Sequence record: NC_101840.1 | Origin: a phage | DNA length: 49,798 nt | Reading direction: 5' to 3' (one strand) | Shown: positions 3,371-49,022 of the stretch, piece by piece | How the letters are laid out: each line of letters begins with the position of its first letter | How positions within the stretch are numbered: position 1 is the stretch's first letter | The notes under the pieces: generated by a model | Told to the model about the DNA's origin: nothing | Databases searched by the model: none | The model's input: only the letters and a program-made list of their open reading frames with translations | Position numbers and translations under genes: made by a program

Positions 3371-3386
3371 CACTAATTGCTAAAAA
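3365..3386 (+). promoter_or_regulatory. conserved junction box (variant AAATAGCACTAATTGCTAAAAA), sense to downstream gene
   Basis: one of 18 copies of the box; its TAG is the terminase stop codon; followed by TATAAT (3391-3396) and a hairpin. Confidence 0.5.
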
Positions 3387-3399
3387 GTTATATAATCAA

Positions 3400-3424
3400 G
3401 GCTGGATTTTTCCAGCCTTTTTTA
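3400..3424 (+). terminator. hairpin plus T-run (terminator or RNA stabiliser)
   Basis: GGCTGGA-TTTT-TCCAGCC followed by TTTTTT. Confidence 0.5.
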
Positions 3425-3440
3425 TTATGGAGATTTGACG

Positions 3441-7972: not shown

Positions 7973-7990
7973 CATAAAAACATCTTGCAC

Positions 7991-8010
7991 GTTTAACAAA
8001 AAGTGCTATC
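7991..8010 (-). promoter_or_regulatory. conserved junction box, inverted relative to downstream capsid gene
   Basis: GTTTAACAAAAAGTGCTATC on + strand; followed by hairpin GGCCGTT...AACGGCC. Confidence 0.45.
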
Positions 8011-11701: not shown

Positions 11702-11740
11702 ATTCCTGTAAAATCAATCTATCAAATAAATTAATTCCAC

Positions 11741-11760
11741 TTTTAACAAAAAGTGCTATA
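11741..11760 (-). promoter_or_regulatory. conserved junction box, inverted relative to downstream gene
   Basis: TTTTAACAAAAAGTGCTATA directly abutting the RBS of the chaperone gene. Confidence 0.45.
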
Positions 11761-17037: not shown

Positions 17038-17614
17038 GCTATCTGGTTCCCTGGGGCGTAGATTTGGCGTCTTTCACAAAATGGCGGTTGACTCATACCC
17101 CGAAGCAATACGCGCGTTATCTTCCCAGGTTGAAGGGTTCAAGGACTACATGCAAAGCGAAGTAGGATCGCGAATGAAGTATGCTGTATTCGTTGATGGA
17201 AAAAACGTTGGTCAGCATGATGAAAAATCATGGAAGTGCGCGCGAGAGGTTCGAATAGTTCCTGTTCCAACTGGTTCTAAGTCCGGCGGCCTGTTCAATG
17301 TTGTTTTTGGTGCTGTAATTATGGCTACTGCTTTCATTACTGGCGGTGCAAGCCTGGCGGCTATGGGCGCTTTTGCATCTTCCGCATTTATGATGGGTGG
17401 TGCTATCGCGCTTGGCGGTGTCATGCAAATGATCTCGCCGCAGCAGGGAGGAATGAAACTGCAAAGCCAGTCAGCAGAAAACAAGCCTTCTTACGCTTTC
17501 GGCGGCGCAGTAAATACCACGGCGGCAGGCTATCCGGTTCCTTTGCCATATGGATATAGGACAGTAGGCGGCGCGATCTGGTCGGCTGGCAGCTACGCAG
17601 AGGACAAAGCATAA
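17018..17614 (+). CDS. tail assembly protein (lambda I-like)
   Basis: position after K-like gene; Gly/Ala-rich hydrophobic C-terminal half. Confidence 0.55.
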   Translation: MTLKVIKLSGSLGRRFGVFHKMAVDSYPEAIRALSSQVEGFKDYMQSEVGSRMKYAVFVDGKNVGQHDEKSWKCAREVRIVPVPTGSKSGGLFNVVFGAVIMATAFITGGASLAAMGAFASSAFMMGGAIALGGVMQMISPQQGGMKLQSQSAENKPSYAFGGAVNTTAAGYPVPLPYGYRTVGGAIWSAGSYAEDKA

Positions 17615-17634
17615 ATAGCACAATATGTTAAAGC
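17613..17634 (+). promoter_or_regulatory. conserved junction box variant (AAATAGCACAATATGTTAAAGC)
   Basis: degenerate copy; follows TAA stop of I-like gene; followed by hairpin GCGAAAACGGATTTTCGC. Confidence 0.4.
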
Positions 17635-17675
17635 GAAAACGGATTTTCGCTTTACAATTAATTAAGGAGGTGATC

Positions 17676-23005: not shown

Positions 23006-23054
23006 TACTCCTTAGTTGTTGTTGAATGCAACTATACACGATCTTGGGCATCGC

Positions 23055-23076
23055 GTTTAGCAAAAAGTGCTATTTG
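23055..23076 (-). promoter_or_regulatory. conserved junction box, sense to leftward lipoprotein operon
   Basis: GTTTAGCAAAAAGTGCTATTTG on + strand; TATAGT hexamer about 21 nt downstream on minus strand. Confidence 0.5.
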
Positions 23077-23442
23077 TTATTTTTTGTTTTCCGGTGTTAT
23101 CGAATTTAAGACGGCGTAAATTTAGCGCAAAATTTAGACAACATAAGATCAATAAACAATCAATAAAATAGATATATACATATAAAATCAATAGTTTATT
23201 TATGTATGTATGTATATTTGTTTTTTCTTGTTATCTGCGTTTCTTGTGGTTTTGGTTGTTTGTGGTGATTTTTCTTTCTGAGTATCTGTATGTGCCATCA
23301 TTCATGTGTATGTATATAATCCGGCGTATCTGAGAGAGCATGGGAACAAGAAAAATAACACACATTAATCATTAACTTATGAGTCAAATCTGTTTTCTTG
23401 CCATCTGAGAACGTTTAGAAAACAGAAAAAACAAAACAGCTA

Positions 23443-23470
23443 TTGACTAAATCAACCAAATGGCTACAAT
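23443..23470 (+). promoter_or_regulatory. sigma70-type promoter (TTGACT-N16-TACAAT) for recombination operon
   Basis: near-consensus hexamers with 16-nt spacer about 30 nt upstream of ATG 23501. Confidence 0.5.
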
Positions 23471-23500
23471 GCACGCATAAAGCAACAAGGAGCATTAAAG

Positions 23501-29074: not shown

Positions 29075-29096
29075 AAATAGCACTTTTTGCTAATGA
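29075..29096 (+). promoter_or_regulatory. conserved junction box, inverted relative to the leftward fibre gene
   Basis: AAATAGCACTTTTTGCTAATGA about 16 nt upstream of the fibre gene start on the opposite strand. Confidence 0.45.
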
Positions 29097-29165: not shown

Positions 29166-30095
29166 TTATAGCAGTGATTCGGGCTTGTAGAGTTTTCTTT
29201 CTACTCCCTGTTTAAAATTATCGTTAACAGGCATCATTATGTCAAGCCCTCTTTCCTCTGCCGCGATTATCACATCACGATCATCTTTCCGGCAGACTAC
29301 GCGCATTCTTCTTTCTCCTTTATATCTATGCGCAACCATTTCAAGATTTGAAGGAGTAAAACAGGCCCACACCTCTTGACCAGTTGATAAATGAACATGC
29401 TGAGAATCAACCCAATCAAGGCACAAATAGATCGTCTTATCTGTACTACCTGTTTTAACAACAGATCCGCGCGTGTAGTCGCGAGCTAAAAACCAATCCT
29501 TTCCATCCTCATCAATGAAAAGCACGTTACACATTTCATCATCCAGCCCGTCATCATGCACAAGGTGACAAGGTAGCGCGTGAATGTATCGACCATCCTT
29601 GACGCCGCAATCATAATGACAATCTTCCGGCGGATATATCCCCTCATAAACGCTTAAAGGTGTGCGATCGAATTTTAATGTTTTTGCCATCACTTTTTCG
29701 CAACATTCATGACTTGCCTGTTTCCCGAACGAGTAACCAGAAGAGCGCGAAGCGCGTTTGTTTGCTCTGATCCTGTAATCTTGTGGCACTTTTCCGAGGA
29801 AGCGGCCCAAAATGTTGATGGCCTCGCTGTAAGGTTCGCCAGTTAATTTCATTAACCAACCGATCCCCGTGTCGTTGCCGCACACGTTGCAGATCGCGCC
29901 GCCGTCGCCCTCTTCATTTAGCTTATCAGTCCATCTAAAACGATCCTTACCGCCGCAGTGTGGGCAAGGTTGATGCTTTTTGTTGAAAACATCGCTATGC
30001 AGTCCGCAAATGCTTTGTAGTGCTTCACGCCATAACCCCTTCATATATGGCAAAACATCTTCTTTCTGATAGGTCATAAAGTTTTCAGTATTCAT
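29166..30095 (-). CDS. DNA primase (zinc-ribbon plus TOPRIM-like)
   Basis: CPHCGGKDRFRW zinc-ribbon motif, acidic DEDGKD TOPRIM-like motif; GAGG RBS before ATG 30095 (track start 30173). Confidence 0.7.
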   Translation of the reverse strand: MNTENFMTYQKEDVLPYMKGLWREALQSICGLHSDVFNKKHQPCPHCGGKDRFRWTDKLNEEGDGGAICNVCGNDTGIGWLMKLTGEPYSEAINILGRFLGKVPQDYRIRANKRASRSSGYSFGKQASHECCEKVMAKTLKFDRTPLSVYEGIYPPEDCHYDCGVKDGRYIHALPCHLVHDDGLDDEMCNVLFIDEDGKDWFLARDYTRGSVVKTGSTDKTIYLCLDWVDSQHVHLSTGQEVWACFTPSNLEMVAHRYKGERRMRVVCRKDDRDVIIAAEERGLDIMMPVNDNFKQGVERKLYKPESLL

Positions 30096-30106
30096 GGAAA
30101 ACCTCA

Positions 30107-30143
30107 ATAAAAAAGCCCAGCAAATATTATCATTTCGCTGGGC
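30107..30143 (-). terminator. weak terminator-like hairpin
   Basis: on minus strand: GCCCAGC ... GCTGGGC with 15-nt loop followed by T-run. Confidence 0.3.
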
Positions 30144-30150
30144 CTTATCA

Positions 30151-30627
30151 TTAGCTATTCGTGCTGTTATCACCTTTGTAGAATCGTCCGCCTGGTTCGT
30201 AGTCTGAATTTTTGACTACGCGCAACATATCGTATTTGTCGCAACGGGTAGTAAGAGGCTTACCGTTAGAATCAAACCGCAGATCTGGACGACAAAATGA
30301 TGCGCGGTATCCTTTGCATCCATTATATTTGTAGTCGTTATGCACCTTTTGTGCTCCAGCGGCTGAAATCATACCACGCTTTCGCCACTGGTTAACGACT
30401 TGCTGAGATACGCGCAGACGTCGAGCCATAGCAGGAACGCCGCCGTAATACTCGATCAGAATGTCAAGGCGAGATTTCAGGCTTGCTTTTACCTCATCTC
30501 GCAGGATAAGAAATCCGGTTCGGTGTTTTCGTGGTTTTTTGTCTTTACCTCGTCGCGTTCCGTTGTTACCGTTAATAGTGCGCTTGTCGATCTCACCCGT
30601 AGATACTGCAATTCGTGCATCTTTCAT
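30151..30627 (-). CDS. HTH DNA-binding protein (Cro/YdaS-like helix-turn-helix)
   Basis: LRVSQQVVNQWRKRG helix-turn-helix signature, basic N-terminal region; GAGGTGA RBS. Confidence 0.5.
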   Translation of the reverse strand: MKDARIAVSTGEIDKRTINGNNGTRRGKDKKPRKHRTGFLILRDEVKASLKSRLDILIEYYGGVPAMARRLRVSQQVVNQWRKRGMISAAGAQKVHNDYKYNGCKGYRASFCRPDLRFDSNGKPLTTRCDKYDMLRVVKNSDYEPGGRFYKGDNSTNS

Positions 30628-30636
30628 CTAGTCACC

Positions 30637-30658
30637 TCATAGCATTTTTTGTTAAAAC
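30637..30658 (+). promoter_or_regulatory. conserved junction box, sense to helicase gene; overlaps RBS of divergent HTH gene
   Basis: CATAGCATTTTTTGTTAAAAC. Confidence 0.5.
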
Positions 30659-30714
30659 AGTTTATTGTAATTAGTCTATTATATACTCCAAATGGCATTT
30701 TTTAAAGGTTTAAG

Positions 30715-32712
30715 ATGATTCCAAATATCGAAAAACAAATATCAGCATTAGGCGAGGCAGTAATAAAAAGCATCCAAGAGCGATTCACGGTTGGCAATAT
30801 AGTGCCTTATCCTTATCAGTGCGTTGCGTATGCAGAGATCGCAAAGCGCATGAAAAACTATGAGCATCCTTTCTTTGTTAAGGCTTCTGTATCGGCTGGC
30901 AAAACATTGATGTTTGCGATGGTTGCGGCGCAATGCCGCAAAATGGGATTGAAAATGATGGTCCTTGCTCGCCAGGCTGAAATTGTTGATCAGGATTCGG
31001 AAGAGATCAGCAATCTTGGCGTGCCAAACTCAATCTATTGCGCCGGACTGAAAACAAAAAGCGCATACTTTCCGATCGTAGTCGGTTCTGAGGGCACTGT
31101 AGTAAACGGATTGTTTAAGTCGTTAGGTGATTATGTTCCGCACGTTATCGGTATTGATGAATGTCACCAGGTGGATTGGGAGGATCTCGCGGACGCGATA
31201 GAAAATAATGAATCTTACCAGCAGATGACCACTAAGAAGGATTTGCCTGTACTGATTGGAGAAGAACAGCAATTTGATTCCAATGGCGATCCAATGTTCG
31301 GAACAGGGCGCACACAGTACACCGTAATAATCATGGAAATGATGCGTAGGTGTCGCGAGGCATACGGGCACGAATTGCGAATATTCGGCATGACTGGATC
31401 TGAGTTTCGCGGCGTGGTTCCAATACTGGTTGAAGATAAGAACAAAAAGGGATTCTGGCGTGAGCAGGTGACTAACATAGACACAAACTACTTAATCAAA
31501 TTCGGTTCGGTAGTGCCAACAAACTTCGGCGACGTAGGCGACCTGGGTTATGACCTTTCAGAGTTCGAAGCCAGTAGCGAGGATGGCGTTTCAGACTTTG
31601 ACGCTAAAACATTGCGCAAGATGGAAGAAAAGATCCATCAAGACGCAACAATGACACAGAAAATCATGGCTAAAGTCCATGAGATATGCAAAGACAGGAA
31701 CGGAGTTTTAGTTACATGCGCAGGGGAAAGGCACTGCAAGGAGGCCGCCGCCGCACTGCCGCCAGGCGTTGAATACAGGATCATAACTGGCAAGACTGGA
31801 GATAATCAGCGTAAAGAGTGGCTGAGGGAGGCATACGAGGGAAAAGTAAAATACATCTTCCAGGTACAGGCGCTTACCACTGGCGTTAACGTTCCGTTTT
31901 GGGATACTTCTGTAATACTGAGAAAGATAGGATCTCTAACATTGCTTATCCAGCTTTTGGGGCGCGGCATGCGACTGCTTAAGCAATGGCACATTGAGCA
32001 GGGATTCAAGAAAAAAGATCATCTTGTGTTGGATTTTGCAGGTACTATGGATGAGTTAGGTGATTTGTATTTCGATCCAATCCTTGAGCAAGCGCAATTC
32101 CAAAAGAGATTTACAAACGGGAAAGAGCCTAAGACTTGTCCGATATGTGGAACGCTAAACAGCTTTTACGCTCGCCGATGTATGCACGTAGACGATAACG
32201 GGAAGCGATGTGAGCATTTTTGGACTTACAGAATTTGCGAGGACCAGGTAGATCCGAGAACGAAAAAGATAATCAAGCGCGGTTGTGGAACAAAAAACGA
32301 CGTAGTGGCGAGAGTATGCCGTTGTTGCGATATTTCTCTTGTCGATCCTAACGAGAAGTTAAGCGGTAAGCACTACACCAAAAACGATTGGTGCAACGTT
32401 AAATCTTTCCGCGTTGATATGACGAAAAACCAGAAAGGAATTATTTTTTGCTATGAGCTTGAGGCCAACGGCGACACGTTCAAGGCATACGAAAGATTTT
32501 TCCCTGAGTCAGAAAGCAACATTTGCCGGACGATATGGAGAAAAATAGCATTGCAGCACATACCGGATCGCAAGATTGCTGGTATGGTGGCGAGCTATAG
32601 AAATGCTCGTAAAATAATGTCATACGCTCATCACATCATGCCGCCTGTACGCGTAACGCATCGCAAAAACGGCAAAGGTGAGGATAACATTGCAAAACGG
32701 GAGTTTGTTTAA
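30715..32712 (+). CDS. SF2 DNA helicase with C-terminal Cys-rich zinc-finger region
   Basis: Walker A SAGKT, DECH box (GIDECHQ), later helicase motifs, CPICG/CxxC cluster. Confidence 0.8.
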   Translation: MIPNIEKQISALGEAVIKSIQERFTVGNIVPYPYQCVAYAEIAKRMKNYEHPFFVKASVSAGKTLMFAMVAAQCRKMGLKMMVLARQAEIVDQDSEEISNLGVPNSIYCAGLKTKSAYFPIVVGSEGTVVNGLFKSLGDYVPHVIGIDECHQVDWEDLADAIENNESYQQMTTKKDLPVLIGEEQQFDSNGDPMFGTGRTQYTVIIMEMMRRCREAYGHELRIFGMTGSEFRGVVPILVEDKNKKGFWREQVTNIDTNYLIKFGSVVPTNFGDVGDLGYDLSEFEASSEDGVSDFDAKTLRKMEEKIHQDATMTQKIMAKVHEICKDRNGVLVTCAGERHCKEAAAALPPGVEYRIITGKTGDNQRKEWLREAYEGKVKYIFQVQALTTGVNVPFWDTSVILRKIGSLTLLIQLLGRGMRLLKQWHIEQGFKKKDHLVLDFAGTMDELGDLYFDPILEQAQFQKRFTNGKEPKTCPICGTLNSFYARRCMHVDDNGKRCEHFWTYRICEDQVDPRTKKIIKRGCGTKNDVVARVCRCCDISLVDPNEKLSGKHYTKNDWCNVKSFRVDMTKNQKGIIFCYELEANGDTFKAYERFFPESESNICRTIWRKIALQHIPDRKIAGMVASYRNARKIMSYAHHIMPPVRVTHRKNGKGEDNIAKREFV

Positions 32713-33131
32713 TGGCTATAACTGATAAAGGAGATTATCTTGAGTTTTACGAAAGAGATCCAACCGACACGAGAAAGGAAGTTAATCACCAGATAGATAG
32801 CTTTCAGTGGTTGACTTATGCTCATCCTTATTTGCTAGCGTGGCATACGGTAAACGAGAATGAGAAGTCGAAAGTAACGGCGATGATTGATCAGCAGTCC
32901 GGCTTGGTTAAGGGGGTAAGCGATTTCATCATCCTGATTGGTTCAAACGGAAAATACCCCTTTGCAGCGATTGAGATCAAACGAGTTAATAAATCAGGCA
33001 AGGGGAAAGCATCACCAGTCAGCGATGAACAAAAGGCTTTTTTGCGTCGCGTTCGCAGCTTAGGAGGATTCGCTGCGGTCGCCTACGGATTTAATCAGTT
33101 TAAGTTAGCTATTGAATACATGCTTAAATAG
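32712..33131 (+). CDS. VRR-NUC domain nuclease
   Basis: GVSDF...AAIEIK PD-(D/E)XK pattern of VRR-NUC proteins; coupled to helicase. Confidence 0.6.
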   Translation: MAITDKGDYLEFYERDPTDTRKEVNHQIDSFQWLTYAHPYLLAWHTVNENEKSKVTAMIDQQSGLVKGVSDFIILIGSNGKYPFAAIEIKRVNKSGKGKASPVSDEQKAFLRRVRSLGGFAAVAYGFNQFKLAIEYMLK

Positions 33132-33147
33132 CACTTTTTGTTAAAAC
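33126..33147 (+). promoter_or_regulatory. conserved junction box (consensus copy), sense
   Basis: AAATAGCACTTTTTGTTAAAAC; TAG is the stop of the VRR-NUC gene; hairpin TGGCGCG...GCGCCA and CATAAT follow. Confidence 0.55.
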
Positions 33148-33210
33148 TGGCGCGATGGATTGCGCCATAATTCAATAACACGAGATAGCTTTTAATAGCG
33201 GAGAAATGAA

Positions 33211-33936
33211 ATGGCTAAAGATATTTTAGATAAAGACACCCATGACGCATTCGTTAGCTTTGAGCAGTTGGAGAGAGAAACATTTATAGGGAATGCCCTT
33301 GCAACTGGAGGCCATTACCAGGCAGTAAAGCCAAATCAATATTATAAGGTAAGCGGCAACCGATACGCTGGAAGCACTACGCCGGACGTTGTGCGCGATA
33401 TGTGGAGCACGCCTCAAGAGATCGTGGAGTGGATGGAATCAGAATTTGGTGAATACGATCTCGACGCGGCAGCAAGCCATGAAAACGCAGTTTGCGAGAA
33501 GTTCTATAGCAAGGAAACAAACTGCTTAAAGCGTTGGTGGGGTAGCAACAAGCACGTATGGCTTAACCCGCCGTACAGCAACCCAACTCCATTTATCAAG
33601 AAAGCAATTGAGCAAATGGAGCACAACAACCAAATTGATGTTTTGTTGCCATCCGACAACTCTACAGCATGGTTTTATGAGGCGCAGAAAAACGCGGCTG
33701 AAATCATCTGGATCACTGGCGAGGTTTACGAAGAGGGGGGAGTGGAATATTCCCGCACCGGAAGAATCGCCTTTGTGTCTGGATTGACTGGCGAGCCTGT
33801 ACAGGGCAACAATAAGGGAAGCGTGATTTTTGTCATGCGCAAACTTAAAGAAGGCGAGGAGCAGAAAACGCGATACGTTAAGATCAGCGATATTTGCCCC
33901 TCTGTAACCGAACGCCGCGCGCGCAAACGGAGCTAA
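33211..33936 (+). CDS. dam: DNA N6-adenine methyltransferase (phage Dam type)
   Basis: catalytic NPPY motif (WLNPPYSN) and SAM-binding-like region. Confidence 0.8.
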   Translation: MAKDILDKDTHDAFVSFEQLERETFIGNALATGGHYQAVKPNQYYKVSGNRYAGSTTPDVVRDMWSTPQEIVEWMESEFGEYDLDAAASHENAVCEKFYSKETNCLKRWWGSNKHVWLNPPYSNPTPFIKKAIEQMEHNNQIDVLLPSDNSTAWFYEAQKNAAEIIWITGEVYEEGGVEYSRTGRIAFVSGLTGEPVQGNNKGSVIFVMRKLKEGEEQKTRYVKISDICPSVTERRARKRS

Positions 33937-33940
33937 CACG

Positions 33941-34198
33941 ATGAAAAAAGAGAGAAGCGTTTATTTAAATGAAACTGGCGAGTGGTTGTTATTTCGCGCT
34001 ATGGTGTGCGATGCACTTGATAAAAACCCTAACGTGAAAAAGATGATTGATTGCGATCCGTGGGAATTTTCAAGCGCATTAGATATGAGCTTTGATGAGA
34101 CAAGGAAACTCCCTCTTGAAAAATGGCACGAACAAATCAGAAATGATATGCAAGAGTTTGTAGATTCGTGGAATTTTCAGAACGGAATGATCCACTAA
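33941..34198 (+). CDS. hypothetical protein (85 aa)
   Basis: track ORF. Confidence 0.45.
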   Translation: MKKERSVYLNETGEWLLFRAMVCDALDKNPNVKKMIDCDPWEFSSALDMSFDETRKLPLEKWHEQIRNDMQEFVDSWNFQNGMIH

Positions 34199-34218
34199 TA
34201 GCACTTTTTGTTAAAACG
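34197..34218 (+). promoter_or_regulatory. conserved junction box, sense
   Basis: TAATAGCACTTTTTGTTAAAAC; hairpin GCCCGGC...GTCGGGC, ATAATT and leader TTCATCGAAACGAAC follow. Confidence 0.55.
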
Positions 34219-34267
34219 CCCGGCATTTTGTCGGGCATAATTATTTCATCGAAACGAACGTGAGGAA

Positions 34268-36256: not shown

Positions 36257-36747
36257 TGAGCATAAAGAACAGGGTAGCGGCTGCGGCCTTTGGCGTTGCG
36301 GTTGCCTTGACTTCTCCACTTCTTGAAGAGATCGAAGGGGTAAGATACAAGCCATACAAAGATATTGCTGGAGTATGGACGGTTTGCGCAGGAATCACCG
36401 GACCAGATGTTATCCTGGGGAAAACGTACACTAAAAAAGAGTGTGATGCTTTGTTGGCTAAACATATCCAGGTTGCTAAAAAAGAAGTTGACAAGCAAGT
36501 TAAGGTTGACATTCCTGATAGTATGCGTGCAGCAATGTACTCATTCACTTACAATGCAGGTGTGGGAGCTTTCAGAAATTCAACAATGCTGAAACTCATA
36601 AACCAGGGGAAATTAAACGAGGCTTGCGATCAGCTTTATCGTTGGGCTTATTACCATAACCCAAAAACAGGAAAGCGCGAGAAGTCTAAAGGCTTACTTA
36701 ACAGGCGCAAGGTCGAATACAAATATTGCACAATGGATCTGAAATGA
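36256..36747 (+). CDS. SAR endolysin (lysozyme-like glycosidase with signal-anchor-release domain)
   Basis: N-terminal hydrophobic Ala/Gly-rich SAR segment; catalytic E-8aa-D-5aa-T spacing ([19 protein letters not shown]). Confidence 0.8.
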
Positions 36748-37378: not shown

Positions 37379-37439
37379 AATTTTTCCTTTTTGGTTGGTT
37401 CGTTTCGATGAAACAAATATACCCGACACAAGGTCGGGA

Positions 37440-37460
37440 GTTTTAACAAAAAATGCTATT
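37440..37460 (-). promoter_or_regulatory. conserved junction box, sense to leftward gene
   Basis: on minus strand: AATAGCATTTTTTGTTAAAAC, hairpin CCCGACC...GGTCGGG, TATATT, leader TTCATCGAAACGAAC. Confidence 0.55.
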
Positions 37461-37972: not shown

Positions 37973-39549
37973 CCCAGCAGTATTGGATTGACAAAAATAA
38001 CACCATTAATCACACAAACATAATTTCTTTCTTCCAGCATTGGCAGTAAGTGCCCTTCTATCCTTTTCATTACGCCAGCCTGACCAACGAAAGGTTTTAC
38101 CTTTCTCGCTGATTCGTACAGGGCGCGGATATTCAGAATCCCTTTATTAGCCTTGCCGTGCCTCGTGATCAATTCAATCAATTTACCCATTTCAGCATCA
38201 TCACCAGCATAACCAGAAGCATTGGCGGCGCTAATGTATGTTTTGCTCAATTCCTGAAACATGATCAACGCCTCTTGCATTGTTTCCACGTCGATCTCTT
38301 TCGACTTCTGCGGGTATCCGGCAGGATTAAACCAGTTACGGATAACATGCAGGACGGAAGCAAGCCTGATCACCTGTTTATCCATTTTACCCAGCGCACC
38401 GCGTAACATTGTATGAGAATACTTTCCTCCGTCTGCAAGATGCGGTTCCATATCCTGGCGAGCAATGTTGAGCACTCGCATAGCTGAACGGCTTATTTTC
38501 AGCGATATATTTGATTCGCTCATGATGTTATGCACCAATTGATAATATTGGGCTTTCAATTCAGAATCCACCGCCTCATAGGTAGAATCACCATTTTCAT
38601 CAATGAATGAGCGACGGCCTAAGAATGATTCCTCTCGGACCAACAAAAAACGCTCACTAACACCGATGCCTCGCGATCCAGCGTCCATGATTCCGCTTAT
38701 CGTTTCATCCTGGGCTATGACGCTCATACATCCAAGCGCGCGAAAACTCATATTATTGTCAGCATTAGCACGGGCAATTGATACGTGACCATTATCCCAC
38801 GCCTTAAGCACTAACTCACTGTTAGTCTTCCTTTCGCTATTTGCATAGGTCAAGCCTAACAGACTGTTAATACTTGTTGCTTCATCAGATATTACGGCAA
38901 AGTTACCTTGCTTGTTGTTGATTTTCGCCAAGCCTTCTGGAGTTGTATCTGAAACAGGAAAAGTTATATCACACATTTTTTCCAGCTTTTCCTCCAGATC
39001 CTCTTTTTCCTGGTATAGAGATTCCATATCAGCGCCGGATCTTTCGCTTTTCATCTCCTTTGCAAGACCTGCCAGCTTTGCCTGTATTTTCTTTCTTTCC
39101 TTGCGGCGTTGCTCGTTGATCTTCTCAACTTCCGCAATCATCGGAGCAATAGCCATGCTGTTGATCGCAGATTTACCAGTTGACGGCGGCTGGCTTGTAA
39201 CGACGTAAAGCGCAGTCGGCTGATCGGTTCCGTGATAGTCAACCGTAAAGCGTCCAAGCATAGCGGCAGAAATGCAGCCGATAAAGTGCATGTAAGCCGA
39301 TGATTCAGGGAATTGAACGGATCGCGCAATGCTGCGTGATAACTTGCCGACAACATCAATATCATTACCAAGAGAAATAACGGGGTAGCGATCGTGACCG
39401 CTATTCACATCCTTTACGTCGCCCCAAAAGCTGGACGACTGGCGATAGCCGTTAGCCTGAATTGATACGCGAACTGGCGAAAGGTTCTGGCTTTCAGCCA
39501 TAGCGATTATTTGTTGTGGAGTTAATTTGTTCGTTTCTAATGAAAACAT
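37969..39549 (-). CDS. P-loop NTPase, SF3-helicase-like (526 aa)
   Basis: Walker A variant QPPSTGKS and Walker B-like VISDEAT; AAAGGAG RBS. Confidence 0.55.
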   Translation of the reverse strand: MFSLETNKLTPQQIIAMAESQNLSPVRVSIQANGYRQSSSFWGDVKDVNSGHDRYPVISLGNDIDVVGKLSRSIARSVQFPESSAYMHFIGCISAAMLGRFTVDYHGTDQPTALYVVTSQPPSTGKSAINSMAIAPMIAEVEKINEQRRKERKKIQAKLAGLAKEMKSERSGADMESLYQEKEDLEEKLEKMCDITFPVSDTTPEGLAKINNKQGNFAVISDEATSINSLLGLTYANSERKTNSELVLKAWDNGHVSIARANADNNMSFRALGCMSVIAQDETISGIMDAGSRGIGVSERFLLVREESFLGRRSFIDENGDSTYEAVDSELKAQYYQLVHNIMSESNISLKISRSAMRVLNIARQDMEPHLADGGKYSHTMLRGALGKMDKQVIRLASVLHVIRNWFNPAGYPQKSKEIDVETMQEALIMFQELSKTYISAANASGYAGDDAEMGKLIELITRHGKANKGILNIRALYESARKVKPFVGQAGVMKRIEGHLLPMLEERNYVCVINGVIFVNPILLG

Positions 39550-39601
39550 TCGTTAGCTTCTCCTTTGTGGGCCGTAAATTTTAACGGCCCAATACTACCC
39601 C

Positions 39602-39623
39602 GTTTTGTCAAAAAGTGCTATTT
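39602..39623 (-). promoter_or_regulatory. conserved junction box (TTGACA variant), sense to leftward ATPase gene
   Basis: on minus strand: AAATAGCACTTTTTGACAAAAC; TAG is stop of upstream gene; hairpin GGGCCGTTAAAATTTACGGCCC follows. Confidence 0.55.
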
Positions 39624-40222: not shown

Positions 40223-40275
40223 GATTAGATCTCCTTTGTTTGTTCGATGTGATTATGCCAGGTTTTTACACCTGG

Positions 40276-40297
40276 CTTTTAACAAAAAGTGCTATTT
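40276..40297 (-). promoter_or_regulatory. conserved junction box, sense to leftward genes
   Basis: on minus strand: AAAATAGCACTTTTTGTTAAAAG; TAG is stop of methyltransferase-like gene; hairpin GCCAGGTG...CCTGGC and CATAAT follow. Confidence 0.55.
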
Positions 40298-41727: not shown

Positions 41728-41940
41728 TCATTTCTTATTTTTCATCTTAAATTTATGGCCTGGAACACCAGCACCAATATAGCCATCGTTGTATTCCATT
41801 AAATAAAGGTGAAGGCCATTATCTGAAATTACATGAGGATCTTCTTTGAGATTTCCCATTAGCGGGTATTCTTTTCCGCGCGTAAATCTCCAAGTTGAGT
41901 CATAAGTTTCTACGCATTTAAGTTTTAATTGCTTTGCCAT
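41728..41940 (-). CDS. hypothetical protein (70 aa)
   Basis: track ORF; coupled to upstream gene. Confidence 0.45.
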   Translation of the reverse strand: MAKQLKLKCVETYDSTWRFTRGKEYPLMGNLKEDPHVISDNGLHLYLMEYNDGYIGAGVPGHKFKMKNKK

Positions 41941-42137
41941 TAGATGATCTCCATGTATGTTTCAAAGCCATTTAACTTGAACAGGCCGTTTTCACATTTG
42001 CGAACGTTCCAAGTTAGCCCTGAGTGGTACGCCTCCATATCATCAAGGTCAATGGTGATTTCAGCACCTTTCTTAAACAAACCTTTTTCGTGAGACTTGT
42101 CGCGCTTAACAACTTTAACATCAACCTGATTTTCCAT
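41940..42137 (-). CDS. hypothetical protein (65 aa)
   Basis: track ORF; GAGGA RBS. Confidence 0.45.
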   Translation of the reverse strand: MENQVDVKVVKRDKSHEKGLFKKGAEITIDLDDMEAYHSGLTWNVRKCENGLFKLNGFETYMEII

Positions 42138-42192
42138 CTTTAAATCCTCGTTTGTTGTCGATGCGCTTACTATACCAATCAGCAGCGCATCT

Positions 42193-42214
42193 TTTTTAAC
42201 AAAAAGTGCTATTT
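42193..42214 (-). promoter_or_regulatory. conserved junction box, sense to leftward genes
   Basis: on minus strand: AAATAGCACTTTTTGTTAAAAAA preceded by TAA stop; hairpin GATGCGCT...AGCGCATC with TATAGT in loop. Confidence 0.55.
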
Positions 42215-43438: not shown

Positions 43439-43497
43439 TTACTATCTCCTGAGCGGTTCGTTTCGATGTGTGTAATGTACCCGATCAGGTGGCATGA

Positions 43498-43519
43498 GTT
43501 TTAACAAAAAGTGCTATTT
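43498..43519 (-). promoter_or_regulatory. conserved junction box heading the leftward early operon
   Basis: on minus strand: AAATAGCACTTTTTGTTAAAAC. Confidence 0.55.
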
Positions 43520-44072: not shown

Positions 44073-44100
44073 TTGACACGCACCAAATAGCTTTTATAAT
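44073..44100 (+). promoter_or_regulatory. consensus sigma70 promoter (TTGACA-N16-TATAAT) for rightward early operon
   Basis: perfect -35 and -10 hexamers about 30 nt upstream of ATG 44132. Confidence 0.6.
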
Positions 44101-44131
44101 GCGCCAACAGTCAACAACTGGAGGAAAGGAA

Positions 44132-44596
44132 ATGGAACAGAAGACCACTAAGGACTATTGCGATTGGCTTCGCGAGCTTGGTCGCCGCCTGGCTAGTGGC
44201 GATATTGAAGAGTATAAAATGTCACTAATTGACCTGGCCGGAATGTTAAGCGGTGACGACTGCTACAAGATCACGCGCAGTTCATCCTACAGCCGGACCA
44301 TTATCAACCGCGTTCCAGAAGTAAGGGCCGCAGGTCGGGTAAGCATCAAGGTAGAGGAAACGGAAGATGATAAATTTTACGTTTTCCGCATGGTCCGCGA
44401 ATCGAAAAGGAAAATCATCACACCCGAAGAATTGCCAGCCATCAAGGCGAGGGCGATCAAAAAGTTTGCCGATCGCTTACTGGCAGCAATCCCGAATATC
44501 GTTGACCTGGAAGGGGATAAACTGGCTGGGGCTTGCGAGGGCGTAAGCCGCTACCAGGATATGATCCGCGAAATCATCAAAGAGGAAGAGCAATGA
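44132..44596 (+). CDS. hypothetical early protein (154 aa)
   Basis: internal ATG of track ORF 44099 with GGAGGAAAGGAA RBS. Confidence 0.5.
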   Translation: MEQKTTKDYCDWLRELGRRLASGDIEEYKMSLIDLAGMLSGDDCYKITRSSSYSRTIINRVPEVRAAGRVSIKVEETEDDKFYVFRMVRESKRKIITPEELPAIKARAIKKFADRLLAAIPNIVDLEGDKLAGACEGVSRYQDMIREIIKEEEQ

Positions 44597-44865
44597 AAAA
44601 GGCATTAATCAGCGTTTTGGCGGCAATGGCATTCCTGACCGGATGTAAAGAAGATGGCGCGCATGTTGGCAATGTGCAGATGGCTAACCCTGGCGATGAC
44701 TACAGCGTAAGGGAGCTATTCACCGCTGACGGTTGCACCGTTTACCGATTCTATGACGATCGCACTGTTTACTTCACCAACTGTAAGGGAACGACTAGCT
44801 GGGAAGTGTCGAAAAGCAATGGCAAAGGCACGAAGACAGAACATATGACCGTCGAGACAAAATAG
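44593..44865 (+). CDS. lipoprotein (90 aa), second candidate superinfection-exclusion protein
   Basis: signal peptide with lipobox LTGC; ATGA overlap with upstream gene (track 44533 uses upstream start). Confidence 0.55.
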   Translation: MKKALISVLAAMAFLTGCKEDGAHVGNVQMANPGDDYSVRELFTADGCTVYRFYDDRTVYFTNCKGTTSWEVSKSNGKGTKTEHMTVETK

Positions 44866-44881
44866 CACTTTTTGTTAAAAC
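44860..44881 (+). promoter_or_regulatory. conserved junction box (consensus copy), sense
   Basis: AAATAGCACTTTTTGTTAAAAC; TAG is lipoprotein stop; hairpin GGGGCC-AGGTATAAT-GGCCC follows. Confidence 0.55.
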
Positions 44882-44934
44882 TCAAATGTGGGGCCAGGTA
44901 TAATGGCCCTACTTTCAACGAAGGAGATAAAACG

Positions 44935-46157: not shown

Positions 46158-46315
46158 CTTGGTTGCTTTTAATCTTTGTCACAAGTTACAACTCCGCAGC
46201 TATTGAGTCGCAGGAGTTCCACGGCGAATCAAGATGCCAGGAAGCGCGAAAGCAAGTTATTCTCCACATGTCAGATAGTGGGAAGGATGTAACAGCGTTA
46301 TGCGTTCGTAAATAG
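46154..46315 (+). CDS. hypothetical small protein (53 aa) with hydrophobic N-terminus
   Basis: ATGA overlap with upstream stop; its TAG stop lies inside the next box; below ORF-track size cutoff. Confidence 0.3.
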   Translation: MTWLLLIFVTSYNSAAIESQEFHGESRCQEARKQVILHMSDSGKDVTALCVRK

Positions 46316-46331
46316 CACTTTTTGCAAAAAA
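46310..46331 (+). promoter_or_regulatory. conserved junction box (variant), sense
   Basis: AAATAGCACTTTTTGCAAAAAAC; hairpin GGGCTT-GCTGTATAGT-AAGCCC follows. Confidence 0.5.
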
Positions 46332-46387
46332 CAGATCATCGGGCTTGCTGTATAGTAAGCCCATAAACAACAAACGAGGATTAAATC

Positions 46388-47044: not shown

Positions 47045-47635
47045 ATGAAACGAGACATTATCATCCTTAATGGGCCGCCAGGTTGCGGGAAGGACACTAT
47101 TGCAGCTTACCTAACGGGCCATCGTTACCCAGCGGTTAAGGCGTCATTCAAACAGCCGATGTTCGATATTGCGTTTTCCATGCTTGGCCCGACTCGATAT
47201 GATGAGTTTATTGACCTGTACAACGACCGAGAGCAAAAGGAAAAGCCTCAAGTTATCTTAGGCGGCAAGTCACCTCGACAATTCATGATCTGGATTAGCG
47301 AGGATGTAATGAAGCCAGTCTTTGGGGATCACTATTTCGGGCGTCGAATGGTTGAAGAGATTCACGAGATGTACCGAGATTTAGCGGTTGTGATCAGCGA
47401 TGGAGGATTCCCCGAAGAAATCAAGCCGCTCGTTAAGGCGGGGCATGAGGTGCATATTTGCCGATTGCATCGCGACGGCTTCACGTTTGCTGGCGATTCG
47501 AGAGACTACATTGACCTGAGCGGTTATCACTATCGAATCCATCACTATGACTTCCACTTGCAGGACGGCAAGCCGGAACTGGCTGTAAACGAGATCGTCA
47601 ATGCTGTCAAATGGAAGCACACAAAGATTAAATAG
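47045..47635 (+). CDS. P-loop kinase (polynucleotide-kinase-like or nucleotide kinase)
   Basis: Walker A GPPGCGKDT at residues 10-18; size 196 aa. Confidence 0.6.
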   Translation: MKRDIIILNGPPGCGKDTIAAYLTGHRYPAVKASFKQPMFDIAFSMLGPTRYDEFIDLYNDREQKEKPQVILGGKSPRQFMIWISEDVMKPVFGDHYFGRRMVEEIHEMYRDLAVVISDGGFPEEIKPLVKAGHEVHICRLHRDGFTFAGDSRDYIDLSGYHYRIHHYDFHLQDGKPELAVNEIVNAVKWKHTKIK

Positions 47636-47650
47636 CACTAATTGCTAAAC
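47630..47650 (+). promoter_or_regulatory. conserved junction box (variant AAATAGCACTAATTGCTAAAC), sense
   Basis: TAG is kinase stop; TATAAT 22 nt after TTGCTA. Confidence 0.5.
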
Positions 47651-47705
47651 GCGGGGCGCAATGCCTCGCTATAATGCAAACACCAATCAACGAGAGGAAA
47701 CAATC

Positions 47706-48656: not shown

Positions 48657-48947
48657 ATGGCAAACAAAACTTACCGCAAACTACTGGTTAACGCTTTTGA
48701 AAACATCGCGCAGTGTAACAAGTGGAACGACTCTAAACACTCGCCAATCACAATGAAGCGCGCCGGATTCAAAAATGCTCGTTCATGGGCGCGAGCTTTC
48801 GCAGCTTGCTATATGCCGGATGGCGGACTAGGGGTGATGAACGATTTTTTGATCAACATGATAGAGGAAGCGGCGCGAGAGGATCGACCGCTGACACAGC
48901 GAGATTTTGACGGCTTCGCGCGCGATGAGCTTTACTATCTGAGCTAA
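48657..48947 (+). CDS. hypothetical protein (96 aa)
   Basis: track ORF with RBS. Confidence 0.45.
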   Translation: MANKTYRKLLVNAFENIAQCNKWNDSKHSPITMKRAGFKNARSWARAFAACYMPDGGLGVMNDFLINMIEEAAREDRPLTQRDFDGFARDELYYLS

Positions 48948-48966
48948 TAGCACTTTTTGTTAAAAC
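48945..48966 (+). promoter_or_regulatory. conserved junction box (consensus copy), sense
   Basis: TAATAGCACTTTTTGTTAAAAC; hairpin AAGGGCA-TTTGGTAAAG-TGCCCTT follows. Confidence 0.55.
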
Positions 48967-49022
48967 TTCCGCAAGGGCATTTGGTAAAGTGCCCTTATTG
49001 AAGCGAAACAGAGGAAAGCGCA

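What the first reader, a model, noticed from the sequence alone, without database searches (positions are those of the whole stretch)
33126..33175. Box, GC hairpin and TAnnnT hexamer form a fixed module with a 21-23 nt spacer
At most early-region copies the box is followed by a GC-rich inverted repeat and then a -10-like hexamer (CATAAT, TATAAT, TATAGT, TACATT, TAAAGT), often inside or just after the hairpin loop. Distance from the box-internal TTG(T/C)TA to the hexamer is consistently 21-23 nt (e.g. 33126, 34197, 44860, 46310, 47630, 48945, 37440, 39602, 40276, 42193, 43498, 23055), too long for a sigma70 spacer. Either this is an unusual promoter class whose spacer can extrude as a hairpin, or an RNA element in which an AU-rich cleavage site is followed by a protective 5' stem-loop.
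Basis: partly seen in the sequence, partly recalled or inferred. Interest (0 to 1): 0.6.

Follow-up and report, generated by a model that had tools for sequence, protein, structure and literature searches.

The report
Repeated promoter cassette of T1-like phages
The box, hairpin and TAnnnT hexamer form a repeated promoter cassette of a T1-like coliphage, and its conserved 21-base box, a published repeat of unknown function, matches in sequence and position the binding site of the host stress regulators MarA, SoxS and Rob.

Summary
The window is a T1-like coliphage (Warwickvirus, Drexlerviridae). It has 17 copies of AATAGCACTTTTTGTTAAAAC-type boxes. In 16 of them a -10-like hexamer lies 21-23 nt (13 at exactly 22) after the internal TTGnnA. 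The same module occurs in at least ten other genera of the family.

The box is not a -35 hexamer. If the hexamer is -12..-7, the box spans -51..-31, no -35 is recognisable, and +1 falls on the A of a conserved CATCGAAACGAA leader. This is the layout of a class II activator-dependent sigma-70 promoter.

The box matches both published marbox consensuses (10/10 and 13/14 positions). It points forward, and its GCAC sits at -47..-44, as in the solved Rob-RNA polymerase-micF complex.

The hairpin is real: five of eight pairs covary across genera. It is weak or absent where no upstream gene abuts the box, and its register varies, so I assign it to the upstream transcript.

The box was published in 2024 as a 21-nt repeat of unknown function. 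The main rival reader is the phage regulator Pir, which activates the T1 dam promoter. No binding or 5'-end data exist.

The parts
33127..33147 (+). Box AATAGCACTTTTTGTTAAAAC, predicted at -51..-31. Its TAG (33129-33131) is the stop codon of the upstream VRR-NUC gene (32712-33131). The 15-mer GCACTTTTTGTTAAA (33131-33145) is a perfect GCAnnWWnTGnnAAA marbox match.
33148..33167 (+). GC-rich hairpin TGGCGC-GATGGATT-GCGCCA in the promoter spacer. I assign it to the 3' end of the upstream (VRR-NUC) transcript. The orthologous T1 hairpin is annotated as a rho-independent terminator.
   Evidence: covariation in 10 orthologs; T1 38973-39001
33166..33171 (+). -10-like hexamer CATAAT, 22 nt after TTGTTA and 18 bp after the 20-bp marbox-like site.
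33178..33178 (+). Predicted transcription start (an A, 47 nt after the G of GCAC). The dam gene starts at 33211.
   Evidence: inferred, not mapped
34197..34248 (+). Module copy: box 34197-34217, hairpin 34218-34236, CATAAT 34236-34241, predicted +1 at 34248 (the CA of CATCGAAACGAA).
44861..44911 (+). Module copy: box, then a hairpin enclosing TATAAT (44899-44904). Spacer 21.
46311..46363 (+). Module copy: box variant TTGCAA, TATAGT in the hairpin loop. Spacer 23.
47631..47682 (+). Module copy: box variant GCACTAATTGCTAAAC (full 20-bp marbox match), hairpin, TATAAT.
48946..48997 (+). Module copy: box, then a hairpin enclosing TAAAGT.
43467..43518 (-). Module copy and first promoter of the minus-strand early cluster. 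It has the box and TACATT at spacer 22. It has no upstream gene and no hairpin (-2.6).
42162..42213 (-). Module copy (TATAGT in the hairpin loop).
40245..40296 (-). Module copy (spacer hairpin, CATAAT).
39571..39622 (-). Module copy (box variant TTGACA, TAAAAT).
37409..37460 (-). Module copy (spacer hairpin followed by TATATTTGTTTC, which is terminator-like).
23024..23074 (-). Module copy upstream of the minus-strand ORF that starts at 23005 (aligns with the T1 cor-recE intergenic region, but the gene itself was not identified). Spacer 21.
30638..30689 (+). Module copy for the helicase gene (start 30715) in the divergent region next to the pir-like regulator gene. No hairpin. Its -10 (TATTAT, 30677-30682) overlaps the -10 of the regulator's own sigma-70 promoter on the other strand.
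17614..17665 (+). Module copy in the late region (box variant, hairpin, TACAAT).
30151..30627 (-). Pir/gp23-like Cro-type HTH regulator. It is the rival candidate for reading the box.
   Evidence: PMC6737242

Best explanation
The unit is a compact promoter cassette that is reused in front of most early and middle genes, and a few late genes, of T1-like phages.

RNA polymerase with sigma-70 uses the TAnnnT hexamer as its -10 and starts 7 nt downstream, at the A of a conserved CA(TCGAAACGAA) leader. There is no -35 hexamer. In its place sits the 21-nt box, at -51..-31. It is an asymmetric, strictly oriented protein-binding site in the class II position, where an activator replaces or repositions sigma region 4.

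The best-supported reader of the box is a host MarA/SoxS/Rob-type protein (RamA in Klebsiella). The box is a perfect marbox in the forward orientation, with its GCAC at -47..-44 and its TAAA over the -35 region.

The GC hairpin is not part of the promoter mechanism. It is an RNA structure at the end of the upstream cistron, acting as a leaky terminator, an insulator or a 3' stabiliser. It sits in the only sequence-free part of the promoter, between box and start, because intergenic space is only about 75-85 nt. The upstream gene's stop codon is even built into the box (TAG or TAATAG).

Shown here:
- the repeats, their spacing and their orientation;
- the absence of a -35;
- the match to the marbox consensus;
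- hairpin covariation;
- the dependence of the hairpin on an abutting upstream gene.

Taken from the literature: the T1 ortholog of this very site (Pdam) drives a reporter in uninfected cells and in cell lysate.

Inferred: the exact +1, the identity of the box-binding protein, and the precise RNA role of the hairpin.

The confidence given for this entry (0.45) is for the whole statement, including the host reader.
For: (1) Geometry. The hexamer lies at offset 35 (plus or minus 1) from the G of GCA in 16 of 17 window copies. It does so in about 45 of 52 copies in window plus T1 plus Rtp, and again in Webervirus and Veterinaerplatzvirus. In a 98-site family profile, +1 is A in 79/98 and is preceded by C in 63/98.

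(2) No -35. Matches to TTGACA at 16-18 bp spacing are mostly 0-3 of 6. Published class II MarA/SoxS/RamA promoters are the same, averaging 1.9 matches (PMC10268841).

(3) Marbox match. All 17 perfect matches to GCAnnWWnTGnnAAA in the window are box copies, against 1.3 expected (consensus from PMC12052159). The classical AYNGCACNNWNNRYYAAAYN with up to 1 mismatch gives 16 hits against 1.28 expected (consensus from PMC2064960 and PMC3709825).

(4) The family profile is degenerate exactly where the marbox is. It shows Y at -49, W W at -42/-41 and Y at -37 (C 50, T 39). It is fixed at G, C, A, C, T, G and AAA.

(5) Similarity to solved sites. The box is 11/15 identical, and a T1 variant 13/15 identical, to the micF site crystallised with Rob, TGACAGCACTGAATGTCAAAG (PMC8279559). 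It is 13/15 identical to the mar marbox CCACGTTTTGCTAAA (S2 Table of PMC12052159).

(6) Position. In the Rob-RNAP-micF cryo-EM complex, Rob contacts -47G and -45A, and the B site overlaps -35 (PMC9178005). RamA binds micF at about -41 (PMC8811837). The phage GCAC falls at -47..-44 and the site centre at about -40.5.

(7) A host reader is favoured by invariance. The box is unchanged across subfamilies whose orthologous proteins are only 50-60% identical. Phage-encoded reader and site pairs normally co-diverge.

(8) No MarA/SoxS homolog, AraC domain or sigma domain was found in the phage.

(9) The T1 Pdam reporter spans 150 bp upstream of the start codon and therefore contains the orthologous module. 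It is active without phage proteins, both in vivo and in a lysate of uninfected cells (PMC6737242).

(10) Hairpin. In 10 orthologs, 87.5% of cells are paired against 24-41% for slid controls, and 5 of 8 pairs change on both sides. The median dG is -13.3 where an upstream ORF abuts the box and -7.7 where none does (P=0.003). The same hairpins are annotated as rho-independent terminators in the T1 GenBank record.
Against: - No binding, footprint or 5'-end data exist. The +1, and therefore the -47 register, is inferred from the hexamer.
- MarA and SoxS are scarce in unstressed cells, and Rob is reported to be largely sequestered and inactive without inducers (PMC2787020, PMC12052159). T1-like phages nevertheless grow fast in ordinary broth.
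- Decades of selection for T1 resistance gave tonA (fhuA) and tonB, not rob. This is from my own knowledge. Strict dependence on Rob alone is therefore unlikely, although redundancy or basal promoter activity could hide it.
- The box is more conserved than a marbox needs to be. A at -48 is 100% and T at -40 is 96/98.
- About half the copies contain a perfect inverted repeat, TAGCA-N5-TGCTA, centred at -42. That would suit an HTH dimer.
- The phage regulator Pir activates the T1 dam promoter when overexpressed (PMC6737242).
- Position 19 of the classical consensus (Y) is mostly A.
- The marbox is a low-information motif with thousands of chance copies in E. coli (PMC12052159).
- Hairpin: only 2 of the module hairpins in 30-49.8 kb meet a simple terminator rule of at least 5 T in 8 nt, so most are not canonical terminators.
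Confidence: 0.45

Rival explanations
1. The promoter architecture is the same, but the box is read by the phage's own regulator, Pir (T1 Orf23; window 30151-30627, minus strand). Pir is a Cro-type HTH protein made from a canonical sigma-70 promoter. In this model it binds the pseudo-palindrome TAGCA-N5-TG(C/T)TA centred at -42 and activates transcription as lambda CI does at PRM. Box promoters would then be delayed-early or middle promoters in a cascade.
For: - Pir overexpression activates T1 Pdam-gfp, which contains the orthologous module. It represses Ppir and PrecE, the two canonical sigma-70 promoters tested (PMC6737242).
- In T1 and in the window, the -10 of Ppir overlaps the -10 of a box-type helicase promoter on the other strand. 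Activating the box promoter would therefore shut Ppir off.
- The half-sites are 10 bp apart centre to centre, and the site is centred at -42.
- Pir is a core gene of the same family that carries the box: 849 records.
- Canonical sigma-70 promoters are few. In the window I saw 44073-44100, the pir promoter and a recE promoter. TLS has only three (PMC11447400).
Against: - The base-contacting positions of Pir's recognition helix differ between subfamilies (window SQQVVNQW, T1 SNQTVQGW, Rtp TPQAVEEW, Webervirus SIQVVQQW), while the box is invariant in the same phages.
- Conservation is asymmetric. G at -47 is 100%, but its symmetry partner at -37 is C 50 / T 39. C at -44 and T at -40 are both conserved yet are not symmetric. 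The conserved AAA flank has no left-hand counterpart.
- Orientation is strict, which a symmetric site would not require.
- Pdam is active without Pir (PMC6737242).
- Phol is also activated by Pir but has only a half box.
- The two Pir-repressed T1 promoters share a different motif, GTTGTAAC. I have not tested this lead.
Confidence: 0.25
2. No activator is needed. RNA polymerase alone uses the -10, often with G at -14 or TG at -15/-14. The A/T-rich box acts as an UP-like or alpha-CTD and sigma contact surface that replaces the -35.
For: - G at -14 occurs in 71/98 sites and T at -15 in 37/98, so about a third have an extended -10.
- The box contains a T5 run and an A4 run.
- Pdam works in uninfected lysate (PMC6737242).
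- The authors of the TLS paper suggested UP elements as one possibility (PMC11447400).
Against: - The invariant GCAC and TTG positions are not features of UP elements.
- The box spans -51..-31. From my own knowledge, the UP consensus spans -59..-38.
- Most copies lack TG at -15/-14.
- The box is strictly oriented and its spacing is fixed to 1 bp.
Confidence: 0.12
3. This is an RNA element. The AU-rich box is an RNase E-type cleavage site in polycistronic RNA, and the hairpin protects the new 5' end of the downstream fragment or the 3' end of the upstream one.
For: - The hairpin covaries.
- The hairpin is strongest where an upstream gene reads into it.
- It always lies between the box and the predicted start, so only read-through RNA contains it.
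Against: - The box is kept, with the hexamer at the same distance, where there is no upstream co-directional gene (30638, 43518).
- Its G and C positions are invariant.
- A -10 and a CA start at fixed distance have no role in a cleavage model.
- The orthologous T1 fragment is a functional promoter (PMC6737242).
- The RNA-level idea remains viable for the hairpin alone, and that part is included in my best explanation.
Confidence: 0.05
4. This is a hairpin or cruciform promoter. The inverted repeat extrudes in supercoiled DNA, which shortens the 22-nt spacer or presents a single-stranded -10.
For: In one hairpin class the -10 lies in the loop (centre about offset 34.5-36).
Against: - Copies with no hairpin keep the same 22-nt spacing.
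- The stems are only 5-10 bp with loops up to 10 nt.
- The register is bimodal.
- Extruding a stem would remove far more than the 5 bp of spacer that would be needed.
Confidence: 0.03

Closest known systems
21-nt intergenic direct repeat of T1-like phages (German, ..., Kropinski and Misra 2024, phage TLS; PMC11447400)
   Same: It is the same element. The published consensus is aaATAGCACnnnTTGnTAAAA. The repeat lies in the direction of transcription, about 76 nt upstream of start codons (74-84 nt here), and was also reported in T1, Rtp and Rogue1.
   Different: That paper leaves the function open. It suggests a stoperator, an enhancer site or an UP element, and lists the function as an unanswered question. 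The passages I read do not mention the fixed -10 hexamer at 22 nt, the conserved CA start and leader, the nested hairpin or the marbox match.
Class II MarA/SoxS/Rob/RamA-dependent promoters of Enterobacteriaceae (micF, fumC, inaA, lpxL and others)
   Same: - An asymmetric 20-bp site in the forward orientation that overlaps and replaces the -35.
- GCAC at -47..-44 and a YAAA element at -36..-33.
- A normal sigma-70 -10.
- No recognisable -35.
   Different: The phage sites are perfect consensus matches, whereas the host sites listed in S2 Table of PMC12052159, which was compiled allowing up to two mismatches, mostly deviate from the consensus at one or two positions. There are about 17 per 50-kb genome, invariant across a virus family. 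They double as the stop codon of the preceding gene, and a hairpin is nested in the spacer. Binding by the host proteins is untested.
Lambda CI at OR2/PRM, and other phage HTH activators bound near -42
   Same: A 15-17 bp site centred at about -42 that abuts or overlaps the -35, read by a phage-encoded HTH regulator. Pir does activate T1 Pdam (PMC6737242).
   Different: PRM has its own -35, and the CI operators are symmetric. Here the site is asymmetric, strictly oriented and invariant, while Pir's recognition helix varies.
T4 middle promoters (MotA box plus -10, with AsiA) and T4-type PeSL cassettes (early promoter plus stem-loop). Both are recalled from my own knowledge.
   Same: A -10 plus a phage-specific upstream box in place of the -35. 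Short repeated promoter and stem-loop cassettes lie between small early genes.
   Different: The MotA box is centred at -30 and needs MotA and AsiA, and no homologs were found here. PeSL promoters are complete sigma-70 promoters, and their order of parts differs. I did not test either against sequence.
Rho-independent terminators (the annotation given to these hairpins in the T1 GenBank record)
   Same: A GC-rich stem-loop directly after a stop codon. Some are followed by a U-rich stretch formed by the -10 and the discriminator (34218-34236, 37422-37438).
   Different: Most lack a U tract. One class ends at the next transcription start and is followed by CAUCGAAAC.

Membership tests
21-nt direct repeat of T1-like phages (PMC11447400) | Consensus aaATAGCACnnnTTGnTAAAA | tested here: met
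   14 copies with up to 3 mismatches and 18 with up to 5.
21-nt direct repeat of T1-like phages (PMC11447400) | Intergenic, in the direction of transcription, about 76 nt upstream of a start codon | tested here: met
   Box start to start codon is 74-84 nt at 33127, 34197, 44861, 46311, 47631 and 48946. Two copies (8010, 11760) are antisense to late genes.
Class II MarA/SoxS/Rob (marbox) promoter | Asymmetric marbox: AYNGCACNNWNNRYYAAAYN, or GCAnnWWnTGnnAAA | tested here: met
   17 perfect 15-mer matches against 1.3 expected. 16 matches with up to 1 mismatch to the 20-mer against 1.28 expected. 13 of the 14 specified positions conform in the 98-site profile.
Class II MarA/SoxS/Rob (marbox) promoter | Forward orientation relative to the promoter | tested here: met
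   In every copy with a hexamer, GCAC is distal and AAA is proximal to the -10.
Class II MarA/SoxS/Rob (marbox) promoter | Site overlaps the -35 (centre about -41; micF GCAC at -47..-44) | tested here: met
   Offset 35 to the hexamer gives G = -47 and a centre of -40.5, compared with PMC9178005, PMC8811837 and PMC10268841. This depends on a +1 that is inferred, not mapped.
Class II MarA/SoxS/Rob (marbox) promoter | Sigma-70 -10 present and -35 hexamer unrecognisable | tested here: met
   TAnnnT lies at a fixed offset, and matches to TTGACA are mostly 0-3 of 6.
Class II MarA/SoxS/Rob (marbox) promoter | Bound and activated by MarA, SoxS or Rob | not testable with these tools
   This needs EMSA or footprinting, in vitro transcription, and mutant hosts. 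The held literature links no T1-like phage to these regulators.
Canonical sigma-70 promoter (-35, 16-19 bp spacer, -10) | Spacer of 16-19 bp between a TTGACA-like and a TATAAT-like hexamer | tested here: not met
   TTGnnA to hexamer is 22 nt (21-23). Nothing at 16-18 bp resembles TTGACA.
Rho-independent terminator (for the hairpin) | GC-rich stem-loop | tested here: met
   dG of -8 to -17 in most copies, with covariation.
Rho-independent terminator (for the hairpin) | U-rich tract directly after the stem | tested here: not met
   Only 34218-34236 and 37438-37422 pass a rule of at least 5 T in 8 nt. Hairpins of the second class are followed by CATCGAAAC.
UP element | A/T-only element at about -59..-38 with no fixed G or C (consensus from my own knowledge) | tested here: not met
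   The box spans -51..-31 and has invariant G, C, A, C and G positions.
Operator of a symmetric HTH dimer (Pir or Cro type) | Two-fold symmetric conservation of half-sites | tested here: not met
   TAGCA-N5-TGCTA is perfect in about half the copies. However, -47 is G in 100% while -37 is C 50 / T 39. The -44 and -40 positions and the flanks are conserved asymmetrically.
   The Pir helix varies at 3 of 4 canonical contact positions across subfamilies that share an identical box.
Sigma-54 promoter (TGGCAC-N5-TTGC) | GG and GC elements with fixed spacing | tested here: not met
   Read directly from the sequence. The box has AG rather than GG, and the G-to-G distance is 9 rather than 11. A TATAAT-type -10 follows. 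The consensus is from my own knowledge.

The most novel reading that the evidence does not exclude
T1-like phages (Drexlerviridae, including the Klebsiella Webervirus group) drive most of their transcription units from perfect class II marboxes. Phage gene expression would then be read out by the host MarA/SoxS/Rob/RamA regulators. Bile, salicylate, oxidative or antibiotic stress, or the mar/ramA-up mutations common in multidrug-resistant isolates, would tune how well these phages develop.
Probability: 0.4. Interest if true: 0.8.

Novelty: new variant of a known kind. Interest (0 to 1): 0.6.

Why it matters
The 21-nt repeat of T1-like phages was recently named as an open question by specialists in these phages (PMC11447400). 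They found only three sigma-70-like promoters in TLS, so it is unclear how the family transcribes its genome.

Reading the repeat as the activator site of a class II promoter, with a fixed -10 and a fixed start, would supply the missing promoters: about 15-17 per genome. It would also turn the question into three simple experiments: 5'-end mapping, Rob/MarA/SoxS versus Pir binding, and growth on mutant hosts.

If the host regulators are the readers, this would be a family-wide case of a virulent phage tying its programme to the bacterial multidrug-resistance and stress regulon. That has practical consequences for combining phages with antibiotics in E. coli and Klebsiella.

Either way, the hairpins currently annotated as terminators overlap promoters, and they should be re-read with that in mind.

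Tried and rejected
- **TTGnnA as a real -35.** Rejected. The spacer is 22 nt and nothing at 16-18 bp resembles a -35.
- **Sigma-54 resemblance (TAGCAC...TTGC).** Rejected on spacing and on AG instead of GG (sequence reading).
- **UP element.** Wrong position, and the box has fixed G and C positions.
- **IHF and OmpR resemblances.** These came from memory. Each matches only part of the box, so I did not pursue them.
- **A phage-encoded MarA-like protein.** Pfam scans of 20 early proteins found no AraC, HTH_18 or sigma domain.
- **tRNAs.** None in the window.
- **Full-text search for the box sequence.** Only unrelated hits. The relevant TLS paper turned up later through other search terms.
- **The Rtp genome paper.** Not held in the library.
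- **Other searches for T1-like transcriptomics or marbox plus phage.** Nothing found.
- **Pectobacterium phage Ymer.** It has T1-like genes but is not in Drexlerviridae. It gave one chance marbox match with no hexamer, so it served only as a real-genome negative control.
- **Small antisense ORFs downstream of the two antisense box copies.** They are not conserved between the window and T1.
- **Structure prediction of Pir.** Not run. It would not identify Pir's DNA site.
Full report
**What the window is**

The 4 kb around the finding is 99% identical to Escherichia phages EC195, tuinn and swan01. Swan01 belongs to Drexlerviridae, Tempevirinae, Warwickvirus. The finding lies between a VRR-NUC gene (32712-33131) and dam (33211-33936).

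**Checking the observation**

The focal site has three parts:
- box AATAGCACTTTTTGTTAAAAC at 33127-33147;
- hairpin TGGCGCGATGGATTGCGCCA at 33148-33167;
- hexamer CATAAT at 33166-33171.

The 21-mer occurs 14 times with up to 3 mismatches, against 0 in shuffles. It occurs 18 times with up to 5 mismatches.

A [T/C/G]AnnnT hexamer lies exactly 35 nt from the G of GCA, which is 22 nt after TTGnnA, in 13 of 17 copies. It lies at 34-36 nt in 16 of 17. The binomial P values are about 3e-14 and 1e-12, and no other offset is enriched.

The 36 nt after the box fold far better than random windows. The median is -13.3 kcal/mol against a control mean of -4.2.

Downstream of the hexamer most copies share a leader, CATCGAAACGAA, followed by a Shine-Dalgarno sequence and a start codon.

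I built a profile of 98 sites from eleven genera and registered it on the hexamer. The base 7 nt after the hexamer is A in 79/98 sites, and it is preceded by C in 63/98. That is the usual look of a transcription start.

With the hexamer at -12..-7, the box spans -51..-31. The positions where a -35 should sit read AAAACN, which is mostly 0-3 of 6 matches to TTGACA. So TTGnnA is not a -35, and the 'too long spacer' is not a spacer.

**Distribution**

The module, with the same 22-nt distance, is present in:
- T1 (Tunavirinae);
- Rtp (Braunvirinae);
- a Klebsiella Webervirus and a Veterinaerplatzvirus;
- the position downstream of VRR-NUC in Hanrivervirus, Tlsvirus (Salmonella and Citrobacter hosts), Nouzillyvirus, Guelphvirus, Eastlansingvirus and Henuseptimavirus, even where the downstream gene differs.

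A Pectobacterium phage outside the family that shares T1-like genes lacks it.

**What the box resembles**

The box fits the binding site of the host AraC-family regulators MarA, SoxS and Rob.

- The classical consensus is AYNGCACNNWNNRYYAAAYN (PMC2064960, PMC3709825). The window has 16 matches with up to 1 mismatch, against 1.28 expected.
- The ChIP-seq-derived consensus is GCAnnWWnTGnnAAA (PMC12052159). The window has 17 perfect matches against 1.3 expected, and every one is a box copy.
- The family profile is degenerate in the same classes at the same places. It shows Y at -49, W W at -42/-41 and Y at -37 (C 50, T 39). It is fixed at G, C, A, C, at T and G, and at AAA.
- The box is 11/15 identical, and a T1 variant 13/15 identical, to the micF site crystallised with Rob (PMC8279559). 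It is 13/15 identical to the mar marbox.

The geometry also fits. Class II promoters of this regulon have a forward marbox that overlaps the -35, and they have no recognisable -35 (PMC12052159, PMC10268841). In the Rob-RNA polymerase-micF structure, Rob contacts -47G and -45A, and its second element overlaps the -35 (PMC9178005). RamA sits at about -41 on micF (PMC8811837). The phage GCAC falls at -47..-44 and the site centre at about -40.5.

These are tests of sequence and layout only. Binding by the host proteins is untested.

**Is there a phage-encoded reader?**

I found no AraC or sigma domain in 20 early proteins.

The one annotated regulator (30151-30627, minus strand) is a Cro-type HTH protein. 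It is the homolog of T1 Orf23, named Pir. The literature shows that Pir overexpression activates T1 Pdam-gfp and Phol-gfp, and represses Ppir and PrecE. The reporters carry up to 150 bp upstream of the start codon, so Pdam-gfp contains the T1 ortholog of the finding's site (PMC6737242).

This is real support for a rival in which Pir reads the box. Three more points favour it:
- About half the copies hold a perfect TAGCA-N5-TGCTA repeat centred at -42.
- Pir's own promoter overlaps a box promoter back to back, in T1 and in the window.
- Canonical sigma-70 promoters are few (PMC11447400).

Against the Pir reading:
- Pdam is also active without any phage protein, in vivo and in a lysate of uninfected cells (PMC6737242).
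- Phol, which Pir also activates, has only half a box.
- Conservation of the box is clearly asymmetric.
- Pir's recognition helix differs at most base-contacting positions between subfamilies, while the box is identical in those same phages.
- An element that stays fixed while orthologous proteins drift to 50-60% identity looks like something read by the host.

I weight the readings as follows: host MarA/SoxS/Rob about 0.4-0.45, Pir about 0.25, RNA polymerase alone about 0.12.

Two points count against the host reading. Rob is reported to be largely sequestered without inducers (PMC2787020). From my own knowledge, classical selections for T1 resistance never yielded rob.

**The hairpin**

The hairpin is under selection for pairing. 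In ten orthologous sites from six genera, 87.5% of cells pair, against 24-41% when the partner column is slid. Five of eight pairs change on both sides, and 0 of 500 shuffles reach the observed score.

It is not part of the promoter mechanism, for three reasons:
1. Copies with no upstream co-directional gene keep the box and hexamer at the same distance but lose the hairpin. Examples are 30638, 43518, T1 36443, and Rtp 35297, 45916 and 46157. The median is -7.7 against -13.3, P=0.003.
2. The register is bimodal. One class sits in the spacer and ends at the hexamer. The other encloses the hexamer and ends at the predicted start.
3. It always lies upstream of +1, so only read-through RNA from the preceding gene contains it.

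The T1 GenBank record annotates the same hairpins as rho-independent terminators. Only a minority have a U-rich tail. My reading is that the hairpin is a leaky terminator, insulator or 3' stabiliser of the upstream cistron, packed into the only sequence-free part of a very short intergenic region. The packing is extreme. In 12 of 17 copies the upstream ORF ends in the (TA)AATAG at the 5' end of the box.

**Prior knowledge and novelty**

The box was published in 2024 for phage TLS as a 21-nt direct repeat, aaATAGCACnnnTTGnTAAAA. It was described as lying in the direction of transcription, about 76 nt upstream of start codons, and as also present in T1, Rtp and Rogue1. The authors could not assign a function and listed it among open questions (PMC11447400).

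The repeat is therefore known. The passages I read in that paper, and the searches of the held library, do not mention:
- the fixed -10 and start;
- the class II layout;
- the marbox match;
- the separation of the hairpin from the promoter.

**Verdict**

This is a real, family-wide promoter cassette and not an artefact. The mechanism I propose is an ordinary kind, a class II activator-dependent sigma-70 promoter, used in an unusual way. The identity of the activator is open and can be tested directly.

Noticed in passing
window 44073-44100 (+): A perfect sigma-70 consensus promoter, TTGACA-16-TATAAT (12 of 12). It lies just before the first gene of the plus-strand early cluster (44099-44596, a DUF7174 protein). 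It is one of very few canonical promoters in the genome, and no promoter of 11/12 or better was found at the equivalent place in T1 or Rtp.
   Followed up: partly
window 11709-11760 (-); T1 (L002) about 18800-18851 (-): A box plus TAGATT at the standard spacing points antisense into the end of the major tail protein gene. About 20 nt after the predicted start comes the reverse side of that gene's terminator hairpin (GGGGCGCAACGCCCC, then TTGTTTT). A transcript of about 40 nt would result. The arrangement is conserved in T1, but the small ORFs there are not (77 aa against 21 aa).
   Followed up: partly
window 7990-8010 (-); T1 (L002) about 15067-15087 (-): An antisense box copy in the head-gene region. 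Here TTGTTA is followed after 17 nt by TATGTT, which is a normal sigma-70 spacing. In this one conserved case the box may supply a true -35.
   Followed up: no
window 33129-33131, 44863-44865, 46313-46315, 47633-47635 and others: The TAG inside the box is the stop codon of the upstream ORF in about 8 of 17 copies. In others a TAA directly precedes it (TAATAG, TAAATAG). This means frequent use of the amber stop codon, a rare one in E. coli from my own knowledge, and genes that end inside the next promoter's activator site.
   Followed up: partly
window 30677-30683 (both strands); T1 (L002) 36480-36490: The -10 of the box-type helicase promoter (TATTAT, plus strand) and the -10 of the pir-like regulator's sigma-70 promoter (TATAAT, minus strand) occupy the same base pairs. 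The two divergent promoters should therefore exclude each other.
   Followed up: partly
window 29076-29096 (+): A box-like copy, AATAGCACTTTTTGCTAATGA (AAT instead of AAA), with no -10 at the standard distance. It is antisense to the flanking minus-strand genes and lies next to a poly-A/GC stretch that looks like the reverse of a terminator. Its purpose is unknown.
   Followed up: no
window 3366-3430 (+): A box at the end of a 1.6-kb ORF. From the position of the T1 terminator at 10545-10573, that ORF is probably the large terminase. The box is followed by a canonical terminator (AAGGCTGGATTTTTCCAGCCTTTTTT) instead of the usual hexamer. Rtp has a complete module at the equivalent place.
   Followed up: no
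window 23075-23500; T1 (L002) 29851-30377: A long AT-rich non-coding region upstream of the recE-like gene, between it and the minus-strand ORFs ending near 23005, with short repeats. T1 has about eight copies of TGTAAC/GTTACA, and GTTGTAAC also lies in the two T1 promoters that Pir represses. The window has TGTTATC. This may be an origin or a set of Pir operators that differ between subfamilies.
   Followed up: partly
window 41940-42137 (-): A 65-aa early protein gives a full-length match to Pfam PF25180, 'Phage antiviral trigger protein Gp54' (E = 1.7e-38).
   Followed up: no
window 30151-30627 (-), residues 13-35 of the product: The most conserved part of the Pir-like regulator across subfamilies is not its HTH. 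It is a basic N-terminal stretch, DKRTINGNNGTxRxxDKKxRK. The function of this stretch is unknown.
   Followed up: no
(phages collection): Twenty records named 'Campylobacter phage', with host given as C. jejuni, carry T1-like genes about 78% identical to this coliphage. The host label looks doubtful.
   Followed up: no
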